Source: Negaprion brevirostris
Lineage: Eukaryota
Direction of reading: 5' to 3'
NCBI GenBank assembly: GCA_030324005.1
Contig: JARDVH010000130.1
Coordinates: 19,197,512-19,261,511 of the forward strand
DNA length: 64,000 nucleotides
In this document: piece after piece, positions 27,173 through 29,114 of the stretch
Layout of the letters: each line of letters opens with the position of its first letter
Numbering within the stretch: position 1 is the stretch's first letter
The notes under the pieces: generated by a model
Database searches by the model: none
The model's input: the letters and a program-made list of their open reading frames with translations, nothing else
Told to the model about the DNA's origin: nothing
Program-made: the position numbers and the translations under genes

Positions 27173-29114
27173 CTACCTTTGCCCTGCCTCATCCACCAGT
27201 ACCATAACTAAAGCTCCTGTGATTGGCTATATGGTTTGATTTTTGCAGAGCTGGGTTTCTCATTTGATCAATTCCAATTGCTTAAAATCCTTCCTGTGTA
27301 TTTTCTTGAAATTGCTTCATTCAGTATTATTTGTGATGCCTTATGATTGTTATATCAACACCAATTACTCGTGTATTAATGATGAAACATGGTTTGAGAG
27401 TCATCCACAGAATTAGTACATGACTTGAGTATTGGGGCTTGATTTTTTTTATACAGGGCTTTTTTACTCTCTGACAGCCGTATGTGCCTGTAGAGGCTAA
27501 GCTATAGGTGAAAGGACAAGCACAAGAATCTGTGCTTCTGCCAACACCAACTTATTTGTCAGTTAGGAAAATTGCTATTTATATTGGAATTTGCAACAGC
27601 CCCTTCCACTTTGTCAAAGTTGCAACATCTTGTGCCACCTCATCAGTCATTGATAATGTTGGATTGCTATAAATGTCTACAACTTGACAATTTCAATTAA
27701 TGATGGACATTCCCATTGAACCGAGGGCAGAATCACAGTGCACTGGTGTGGTGTGAAGCTCAGACAAACCTTGCTGGTGTTTTAGTTGTTTTCAGTGTTT
27801 TACATACATTCTCATTCATAATCTCAGTTTGATGCTCATGGTTAGAATGCTATTTGGGGCCATGTTTGCTGACTAAACTTTTGTTGTATTGACTCTTAAA
27901 TAATACTAGGAAGTGAGATAAAGATTGTGACTAGCTCCCTGTTATGAATTGTGAAGGAAAAGAGAGAATTTGGGAGCTGTTTTAAGAGGTAAATCTTATC
28001 TAGTGGAGATTATCTCGGTTTTGATTTTGTTGTATTGGCACTGCAGCCACTGAAAAAAGTAATGATGACCCTCAGCTGTAAAGCAAGCAGGAAGCTGTAG
28101 TTAGGTTGTGTCCTAGTTGCCAAGGAATGGAGAAAGCAGTTGTGGGTTTCTGCAGCATTCCAGCTATCTGTTTTCCTCAAGTGGTTGGGTCTACACAATG
28201 TGTAGAAATTGGGAGATGATCTCTTGTGCTATCAGAGGACCCTTTAAGGGGAAGAGACAGCTCATGTCAAGGGTTGGTTGATTGAAGATGCAAGAGTAGC
28301 TATCTTCAAGCTGATCTTGTCCTTTTGTCACTGGTGAGCAAAGATACCACTCCTGCAGTAGAACTCTGCTTTTTAATGCAGTTGACTTGTGACAAATGAA
28401 TGGGTGGTAGCAAGTGAAAATTTAATGGCGTTTAATTAGGAAGTCAGTTTGCAAGCATAGCTTCTCAACATGACTATTACCCTCAATTCCAATAATTGAT
28501 TTCAAGTGCTTCCTCCTATGGACGTTTATCACTTAACTTCCCGTGCCGATAGATGCACGCACCACTTTTGTCCAAACTGACTCGTCTCGGCAGTTGAATA
28601 ATACTAGGTGCTGAAGTTCAGTATTCGTGTCAATGTGAAGTTAGAGGTTCCGGTCTTCAGAATTCAGCTATCGATCTGAGTTATGCTAAACAAGGAAACG
28701 CTGAAAAAAGATTGCAAGTAAAACTGCCCAAAAACAGCTATTTTGCACTAAGACAGTCACATGCAAACTTATGTTCTTATGTACATACATTGCTATTGTC
28801 CATTGACCTAGTGAAGTAACTTATCCTTAGAATTTTTCTAATTGCATAACAATCACCATGATTTTTGCTGATTAAGCTATAAACTCTTGAGATAAGATTA
28901 GAGGTCAGTTTGCAAACAAGAAGCTTATATAGGATCAAAGATTGCTTAAAAATTTGCACAGTAAATAAACTAAAAATGTGGATGGTTCTTAAGAATGTTT
29001 CATCTCTTCTAGATTTCTGTAAAACTGGAATATGGAAATGATAGTAAAACTGAATTATCTTTAAAGTATTGATTCACCCAGCTCTGCAAATACAGCAGGC
29101 ATGGACAAAGCTAG
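27173..29114 (+). promoter_or_regulatory. Putative long-range intronic RNA duplex between the two alternative exons
   Basis: 27242-27256 tttgcagagctgggt is the exact reverse complement of 29076-29090 acccagctctgcaaa. 27173-27189 ctacctttgccctgcct pairs with 29097-29114 aggcatggacaaagctag (15 pairs, 2 mismatches, 1 bulge), in nested geometry. Confidence 0.6.

What the first reader, a model, noticed from the sequence alone, without database searches (positions are those of the whole stretch)
27173..29114. Long-range nested RNA duplex closing the intron between the two alternative exons
Seen in sequence: tttgcagagctgggt (27242-27256) is a perfect 15-nt reverse complement of acccagctctgcaaa (29076-29090). 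A second nested stem pairs ctacctttgccctgcct (27173-27189, starting 29 nt after the exon-a donor) with aggcatggacaaagctag (29097-29114): 15 pairs, 2 mismatches, 1 bulge. Neither arm sits in a recognisable transposon. A rough chance expectation for a perfect 15-mer inverted match in 2.2 kb is about 2.4e6 x 4^-15, or about 0.002. Both exons are multiples of 3 and far apart, so neither NMD nor simple steric hindrance can enforce exclusivity. Inference: the duplex loops out about 1.8 kb and is part of the exclusivity mechanism, comparable to the docking/selector pairings known for Dscam1 and 14-3-3zeta mutually exclusive exons.
Basis: partly seen in the sequence, partly recalled or inferred. Interest (0 to 1): 0.8.

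Follow-up and report, generated by a model that had tools for sequence, protein, structure and literature searches.

The report
RNA bridge between twin shark exons
In a shark gene for a membrane-traffic enzyme (TBC1D22A), the two ends of the 2.2-kb intron between two duplicated exons are complementary over two nested stretches and are predicted to pair into an RNA bridge, which likely tunes how the exons are joined rather than keeping them either-or, because transcripts carrying both exons are on record in most cartilaginous fishes examined.

Summary
The gene is shark TBC1D22A. Its duplicated exons a (27082-27144) and b (29339-29404) each encode the catalytic IxxDxxR motif. The 15-bp inverted match is real (20 of 3000 shuffles reach it). 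In a relative about 6% diverged, changes fall on 4 of 10 unpaired but 1 of 92 paired positions, and that pair is kept as U·G. There is no two-sided compensatory change, and the depletion is not significant against the local background. Exclusivity is not strict: a+b proteins are on record in 18 of 21 cartilaginous fishes and on 8 spliced contigs, b-only in 5 of 21. The helices enclose no exon, so they are not a Dscam-type docker/selector pair. Best reading: an intron-shortening RNA bridge, akin to FGFR2 IAS2/ISAR, whose function is untested. The scan noted the same geometry earlier in an octopus CaMKII intron (unchecked note).

The parts
14165..14235 (+). TBC1D22A coding exon (…EELRKFSWSGIPRQVRPITWKLLS)
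   Evidence: Sequence, AG/GT ends; matches P0014
25656..25784 (+). Exon upstream of the duplicated pair (GYLPAN…TYRQ, 43 aa)
   Evidence: 100% identical to shark TBC1D22A proteins
27082..27144 (+). Exon a, 63 nt, derived type (as in human TBC1D22A, 2QFZ); encodes the IxxDxxR motif
   Evidence: motif as named in PMC13090580
27173..27189 (+).
   Evidence: -18.4 kcal/mol; pair probability 0.02; the relatives' change at 27176 sits at a mismatch
27242..27256 (+). Arm A2 of the perfect 15-bp helix
   Evidence: pair probability 0.96; no listed change in X12
27381..27417 (+).
   Evidence: -38.7 kcal/mol; probability 0.95-0.98; 0 of 100 shuffles; both X12 changes fall in its internal loops
28969..29004 (+). 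Arm B3, partner of A3
   Evidence: Reciprocal best partner in 33 kb; no data from relatives
29076..29090 (+). Arm B2, partner of A2
   Evidence: 29090 A>G in X12 and X14 keeps a U·G pair
29093..29114 (+). Arm B1: weak partner of A1 (29097-29114); 29093-29108 can alternatively pair with E
   Evidence: 29105 A>C in X12 and X14 is the bulge of A1:B1 but breaks one pair of B1:E
29201..29295 (+). Block upstream of exon b with no listed change in two relatives; holds a branch-point-like CTTGAC and element C (29232-29248)
   Evidence: A2:C pairing not supported
29339..29404 (+). Exon b, 66 nt, ancestral type (as in human TBC1D22B and yeast Gyp1); encodes the IxxDxxR motif
29422..29447 (+). Arm D, 17 nt after the exon-b donor
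   Evidence: D:E -34.7 kcal/mol, probability 0.99, 0 of 100 shuffles; 29434 A>G keeps G·U
29622..29647 (+). Arm E, partner of D; candidate downstream docking site
47040..47154 (+). Downstream exon (IFERIL…FEYI), holds the YxQ motif

Best explanation
Two nested complementary stretches join the ends of the intron between duplicated exons a and b of shark TBC1D22A and are predicted to form an RNA bridge, which likely tunes how the two exons are joined (favouring use of exon a, alone or followed by b) rather than enforcing exclusivity. Shown: the complementarity (A2:B2, 15 pairs; A3:B3, 32 pairs), its excess over chance, the substitution pattern in two relatives, and the existence of a-only and a+b products. 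Predicted: the helices form in the pre-mRNA and shorten the 2194-nt intron to about 345 nt, placing the exon-a donor near the invariant block and acceptor of exon b. Inferred: selection keeps this because it sets the a : a+b : b ratio. The direction of the effect is the least certain step.
For: Joint nested-helix score 82 against 0 of 616 shuffles (maximum 75.5) and 0 of 29 tiles (maximum 60.5). A2/B2 and A3/B3 are reciprocal best partners in 33 kb. In 21 cartilaginous fishes, a-only is on record in 20, a+b in 18, b-only in 5, double skip in 6 (with Heterodontus read). Spliced Logan contigs in three cartilaginous-fish clusters: 18 a-only, 8 a+b, 0 b-only. Bridging of splice signals by intronic stems is an established mechanism (PMC7404189 section 4.1).
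Against: No two-sided compensatory change was seen, and B3 has no data from relatives. Depletion at paired sites is not significant against the local background (16 of 521; P 0.22-0.25); it is only against the whole left intron (P 0.018), so the Fisher result rests largely on a high rate at 10 unpaired sites. With local structure allowed to compete in wide windows, the interaction gain was ordinary (-8.0 against -8.4; 48 of 100 shuffles). A3:B3 alone is reached by 18 of 600 shuffles in the whole-intron alignment test. The joint statistic was designed after seeing the helices. The relatives are close (about 6% diverged). Isoform counts come from annotations and contigs of other species, not read counts; bony fishes show many b-only forms. 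No RNA data for this species.
Confidence: 0.45

Rival explanations
1. The complementarity is chance or a neutral relic, sitting in exon-proximal sequence that is conserved for other reasons, with no effect on splicing.
For: Single helices have modest P values (20 of 3000; 18 of 600). Paired-site depletion is not significant against the local background. The accessibility-corrected gain is ordinary. The locus was picked from a very large scan.
Against: Joint score reached by 0 of 616 shuffles. Changes concentrate in unpaired positions. The spacers between helices show no inverted similarity (172 and 242 of 300 shuffles as high), which argues against a simple inverted duplication. One genomic match for each arm and for the intron.
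Confidence: 0.25
2. A downstream docker/selector switch: E (29622-29647) pairs either with D, which leaves exon b open and gives a+b or b, or with B1 (29093-29108), which loops out exon b and gives a-only. The A2:B2 and A3:B3 helices would hold B1 beside the exon-a donor.
For: B1:E has 16 pairs with one bulge, -26.0 kcal/mol, and is E's second-best partner in 33 kb. It forms with probability 0.99 when D is blocked. It would explain a and a+b with rare b-only. PMC6071210 describes right-hand dockers and states that double inclusion stays possible in its model (passages). An ACTAAT motif lies just before D (its assignment to Quaking is recalled).
Against: D:E wins outright when free (0.98 against 0.00). 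8 of 120 shuffled introns give E as good a partner. 29105 A>C in both relatives breaks one B1:E pair. The flanks of a and b show no significant similarity (33 and 77 of 300 shuffles).
Confidence: 0.13
3. One reading: the duplex is part of what keeps exons a and b mutually exclusive, for example by bringing a silencer of the a-to-b join into place as the FGFR2 stem represses exon IIIc, and a+b forms are minor leak.
For: Both exons encode the catalytic arginine motif, so exclusivity would make protein sense. In FGFR2 the stem activates IIIb and represses IIIc (PMC2471395 passage). Annotation counts are not abundances. Bony-fish Logan proteins checked were single-exon forms.
Against: a+b on record in 18 of 21 cartilaginous fishes and on 8 of 26 spliced contigs; zebrafish NP_999964.1 / AAS92640.1 is a+b. 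No exon is looped out and no steric limit is reached.
Confidence: 0.12
4. The duplex is an ADAR substrate or hides cryptic splice sites in the 1.55-kb loop, without steering the choice between a and b.
For: A 32-pair helix with internal loops could suit ADAR (general knowledge). A cryptic AG after a pyrimidine run near 27457 and a GT at 27480 lie in the loop (sequence).
Against: Neither arm touches an exon. The cryptic GT is lost in both relatives (27480 G>A). No RNA data.
Confidence: 0.05

Closest known systems
FGFR2 IAS2/ISAR (ISE-2/IAS3) stem controlling exons IIIb/IIIc (PMC2471395 and PMC2777236 passages; bioRxiv 10.1101/2025.08.16.670673 passages; Baraniak 2003 and Mistry 2003 not held, titles seen only in reference lists)
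   Same: A non-competing intronic stem at a pair of homologous vertebrate exons that acts by bringing elements together. That both FGFR2 arms lie in the intron between the two exons is recalled, and only partly shown by the passages read.
   Different: FGFR2 exons are strictly exclusive, the stem is conserved to sea urchin and is mutationally proven. Here a+b forms are common, there are two or three helices, conservation was seen only in close sharks, and no factor is identified.
SCN9A ISRE1/ISRE2 RNA bridge at exons 5a/5b (bioRxiv 10.1101/2025.08.16.670673, passages)
   Same: An intronic pairing at duplicated exons that shifts the isoform ratio without itself enforcing exclusivity; conserved to elephant shark. 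The D:E stem after exon b resembles it in position.
   Different: That bridge brings an Rbfox2 site and was tested. The main helices here lie between the two exons, and the only TGCATG (29527) is lost in relative X12.
Human ATE1 exons 7a/7b, elements R1-R5 (PMC7797038; abstract and sections 14, 15 read)
   Same: Long-range intronic pairings at a duplicated vertebrate exon pair; one non-competing helix (R2R5) sets the ratio.
   Different: In ATE1, R1 and R4 are homologous, overlap splice sites and compete for R3, and double inclusion is almost absent. Here the flanks are not similar, the arms avoid splice sites and double inclusion is frequent.
Dscam1 and 14-3-3zeta docker/selector pairings (PMC6071210, passages)
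   Same: Long-range RNA pairing near duplicated exons.
   Different: There one docker in a flanking intron has several selectors and pairing loops out exons. Only the weak B1:E versus D:E lead fits that plan.

Membership tests
Docker/selector control of mutually exclusive exons (Dscam1, 14-3-3zeta, ATE1 R1/R3/R4) | The exons are used one at a time | tested here: not met
   a+b in 18 of 21 cartilaginous fishes, double skip in 6 of 21, a+b on 8 of 26 spliced contigs; presence only, no read counts
Docker/selector control of mutually exclusive exons (Dscam1, 14-3-3zeta, ATE1 R1/R3/R4) | One site has two or more competing partners | tested here: inconclusive
   A2:C has probability 0.00 and is broken in relatives; B1:E against D:E exists but is unfavoured and reached by 8 of 120 shuffles
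Docker/selector control of mutually exclusive exons (Dscam1, 14-3-3zeta, ATE1 R1/R3/R4) | Pairing loops out or masks an alternative exon or its splice site | tested here: not met
   A1:B1, A2:B2 and A3:B3 all lie within 27173-29114, inside one intron; only B1:E would enclose exon b
Docker/selector control of mutually exclusive exons (Dscam1, 14-3-3zeta, ATE1 R1/R3/R4) | Selectors are homologous copies beside each exon | tested here: not met
   Flank similarity reached by 33 and 77 of 300 shuffles
Intronic RNA bridge (FGFR2 IAS2/ISAR, SCN9A ISRE1/2) | Stable long-range intronic helix near alternative exons | tested here: met
   (computed, not probed)
Intronic RNA bridge (FGFR2 IAS2/ISAR, SCN9A ISRE1/2) | Arms conserved, with compensatory substitutions | tested here: inconclusive
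   No broken pair among 92 positions, one one-sided change kept, no two-sided change; close relatives only; B3 unseen
Intronic RNA bridge (FGFR2 IAS2/ISAR, SCN9A ISRE1/2) | Brings a distal protein-binding element to the regulated exon | tested here: inconclusive
   A 95-nt block without listed change is brought near the exon-a donor; no TGCATG beside the B arms, one GCATG inside B1
Intronic RNA bridge (FGFR2 IAS2/ISAR, SCN9A ISRE1/2) | Disruption changes splicing and compensatory mutation rescues | not testable with these tools
   needs a minigene or antisense experiment
Inverted copies of a repeat or transposon ends | Arms occur in many genomic copies, with continuous inverted similarity | tested here: not met
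   One match each (the search skips very common words); spacers differ in length and show no inverted similarity

The most novel reading that the evidence does not exclude
Shark TBC1D22A carries a two-tier RNA switch: a 47-pair clamp holds a selector (B1) beside the exon-a donor, where it competes with D for a downstream docker (E). The switch would choose not between two exons but between one copy and two tandem copies of the catalytic arginine-finger segment of a Rab GAP.
Probability: 0.12. Interest if true: 0.72.

Novelty: new member of a known kind. Interest (0 to 1): 0.42.

Why it matters
Proven long-range RNA structures at duplicated vertebrate exons are few (FGFR2, ATE1, SCN9A among those read here). 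This is a compact candidate in a cartilaginous fish, with named helices that can be mutated and rescued. The exon pair rewrites, doubles or removes the catalytic arginine motif of a Rab GAP and is shared by sharks, rays and bony fishes. Human TBC1D22A has the a type and TBC1D22B the b type in their solved structures, so the pair records how one gene held both versions. If the bridge favours a-to-b joining, it is a case where an intervening-intron duplex permits double inclusion of duplicated exons.

Tried and rejected
A2 pairing with C (29232-29248; 17 pairs, -26.2): probability 0.00 and broken by 27259 C>G in both relatives; rejected. A three-way junction with a hairpin at 27197-27238: two of its pairs are hit by changes at 27205 and 27223; rejected. 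The narrow co-fold result (0 of 300) was not counted, because the windows were cut around the arms. Steric hindrance through a distant branch point: AG dinucleotides at 29294 and further upstream and 165-187 nt from B1 to the branch candidates; rejected. Sequencing runs: no RNA holder listed. Runs X18, X19 and X21 did not cover the A or B arms; X20 covered 29019-29192 at depth 2 with no other letters and a 9-nt insertion. One search listed 40 rows and hid 175, so B3 and changes private to X14 in the 5' arms were not seen; one search listed 18 of 19 (X12) and 21 of 22 (X14) differences. The metagenome scan returned 28 loci of 42-70% identity, none a fish orthologue. The own-genome tool holds no relatives. 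AlphaFold on an a+b protein gave mean pLDDT 40.6 and is uninformative. Literature: searches found no paper on this exon pair; TBC1D22 is absent from the main text of PMC4417111 and PMC9741552 and from the held supplements of PMC8373072 (1 file) and PMC5740500 (10 files); long files may be cut and subscription papers are not searched. Whether tetrapod TBC1D22A keeps exon b could not be seen, as fish filled the 120 listed hits.

Full report
Gene and exons. The window holds part of TBC1D22A of a shark. The exon at 25656-25784 is 100% identical to proteins named TBC1D22A from Heterodontus, Mustelus, Scyliorhinus, Stegostoma and Chiloscyllium. Exon a (27082-27144, 63 nt) and exon b (29339-29404, 66 nt) lie between it and the exon at 47040. 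Against solved structures, exon b matches human TBC1D22B and yeast Gyp1, and exon a matches human TBC1D22A; b is therefore likely the ancestral form. Each encodes the IxxDxxR motif, which PMC13090580 (passages) names as bearing the catalytic arginine. Both exons occur in proteins of sharks, rays, gar, bowfin, bichir and teleosts.

The observation. The 15-nt inverted match is exact. It is reached by 20 of 3000 shuffles of the intron and by 0 of 29 equal-sized tiles. The second stem exists as drawn but is weak: -18.4 kcal/mol, 12 of 300 shuffles, probability 0.02 in a partition-function fold of 27040-29700, and not among either arm's four best partners.

The same fold shows a helix nested inside the 15-mer: 27381-27417 with 28969-29004, 32 pairs, probability 0.95-0.98, -38.7 kcal/mol. 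Its 5' arm finds no equal partner in 100 shuffles of the intron's second half, though in a whole-intron alignment test 18 of 600 shuffles reach its score. The two strong helices, scored as a nested neighbouring pair, give 82 against a maximum of 75.5 in 616 shuffles and 60.5 in 29 tiles; this statistic was designed after the helices were seen. Against this, when wide windows were co-folded so that local structure competes, the gain was ordinary (48 of 100 shuffles). A further stem, D:E (29422-29447 with 29622-29647, -34.7), follows exon b.

Repeat origin. Each arm region and the whole intron gave one match in the own genome, with the tool's caveat that very common words are skipped. The spacers between helices differ in length on the two sides and show no inverted similarity.

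Relatives. Of 22 runs listed, six were laid. Two (X12, X14; 108 and 114 differences over about 1720 nt of the left part) cover all arms, but the tables were cut: B3 was not seen, nor changes private to X14 in the 5' arms, and one difference per run is unlisted. X14 shares all five. No pair changed on both sides. Paired-site depletion is not significant against the local background (P 0.22-0.25), only against the whole left intron (P 0.018). In D:E the one change keeps G·U. The block 29201-29295 shows no listed change in either run. This is moderate support for constraint, not proof.

Exclusivity. Among the first 120 proteins, 30 carry both exons and 8 neither. By species, among 21 cartilaginous fishes, a-only is on record in 20, a+b in 18, b-only in 5 and double skip in 6 (Heterodontus, unclassified there, read). 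In the three cartilaginous-fish clusters with Logan members, spliced contigs encode a-only 18 times, a+b 8 times and b-only never. The two exons are too unlike at the DNA level for an assembler to fuse them without real a-to-b junction words (inference). Zebrafish NP_999964.1 / AAS92640.1 is a+b, while the bony-fish Logan proteins checked were single-exon forms, mostly b. These are presence data from other species, not abundances. They still contradict strict exclusivity and suggest that in cartilaginous fishes b behaves largely as an optional exon after a.

Mechanism. The helices lie wholly inside the a-b intron and enclose no exon. With A2:B2 closed, 345 of 2194 nt stay outside the loop; with A1:B1 about 250, and 165-187 nt separate B1 from the branch candidates, well over the 50-nt steric limit used in PMC5740500 (passages). 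Stems that bring splice signals or factor sites together are an established mechanism (PMC7404189, part 1 of section 4). I therefore read the structure as a bridge that tunes joining of a and b, most likely favouring a and a+b (0.45).

Comparison. It works most like the FGFR2 IAS2/ISAR stem (PMC2471395 and PMC2777236 passages; primary papers not held) and the SCN9A bridge (bioRxiv 10.1101/2025.08.16.670673 passages; its supplements are closed). It is not a member of the docker/selector class as defined in PMC6071210 (passages) or ATE1 (PMC7797038 abstract and sections 14, 15): three defining features were tested and not met.

Novelty. Searches and the supplement look-ups found no account of this exon pair or duplex; the isoforms themselves are in RefSeq. 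It is a new member of a known kind, predicted and partly supported, with interest 0.42.

Noticed in passing
window 29422-29647: A strong stem (D:E, -34.7 kcal/mol) starts 17 nt after the exon-b donor and loops out about 175 nt; its one change in relatives keeps a G·U pair.
   Followed up: partly
window 29093-29108 with 29623-29639: The B1 arm can pair with E (16 pairs, one bulge), which would loop out exon b; favoured only if D is blocked.
   Followed up: partly
window 29201-29295: A 95-nt block upstream of exon b shows no listed change in two relatives, while 29296-29306 beside it changes in both; a likely splicing element.
   Followed up: partly
window 27136 (inside exon a): An internal GT fits the isoforms of several sharks that end at …LQPK, 3 residues short.
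   Followed up: no
proteins P0022, P0024, P0029-P0032: In Pristis and Narcine exon b has lost the conserved proline of IDIPR (IDIAR, IDISR) and appears only in a+b forms among those fetched.
   Followed up: no
window 29413-29418 and 29527-29532: ACTAAT just after the exon-b donor and one TGCATG 120 nt on (Quaking and Rbfox motifs, recalled); the TGCATG is lost in X12 but has no listed change in X14.
   Followed up: partly
window 29068 and 29562: Relatives carry 9-nt and 20-nt insertions here, so the window's lineage likely has deletions just outside B2 and inside the D:E loop.
   Followed up: no
window 27135-27164 with about 25644-25675: The exon-a donor region can pair with the start of the upstream exon (-28.2 kcal/mol, rich in G·U).
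   Followed up: no
L002: A metagenome locus has two I..D.PR matches on the + strand; probably unrelated.
   Followed up: no
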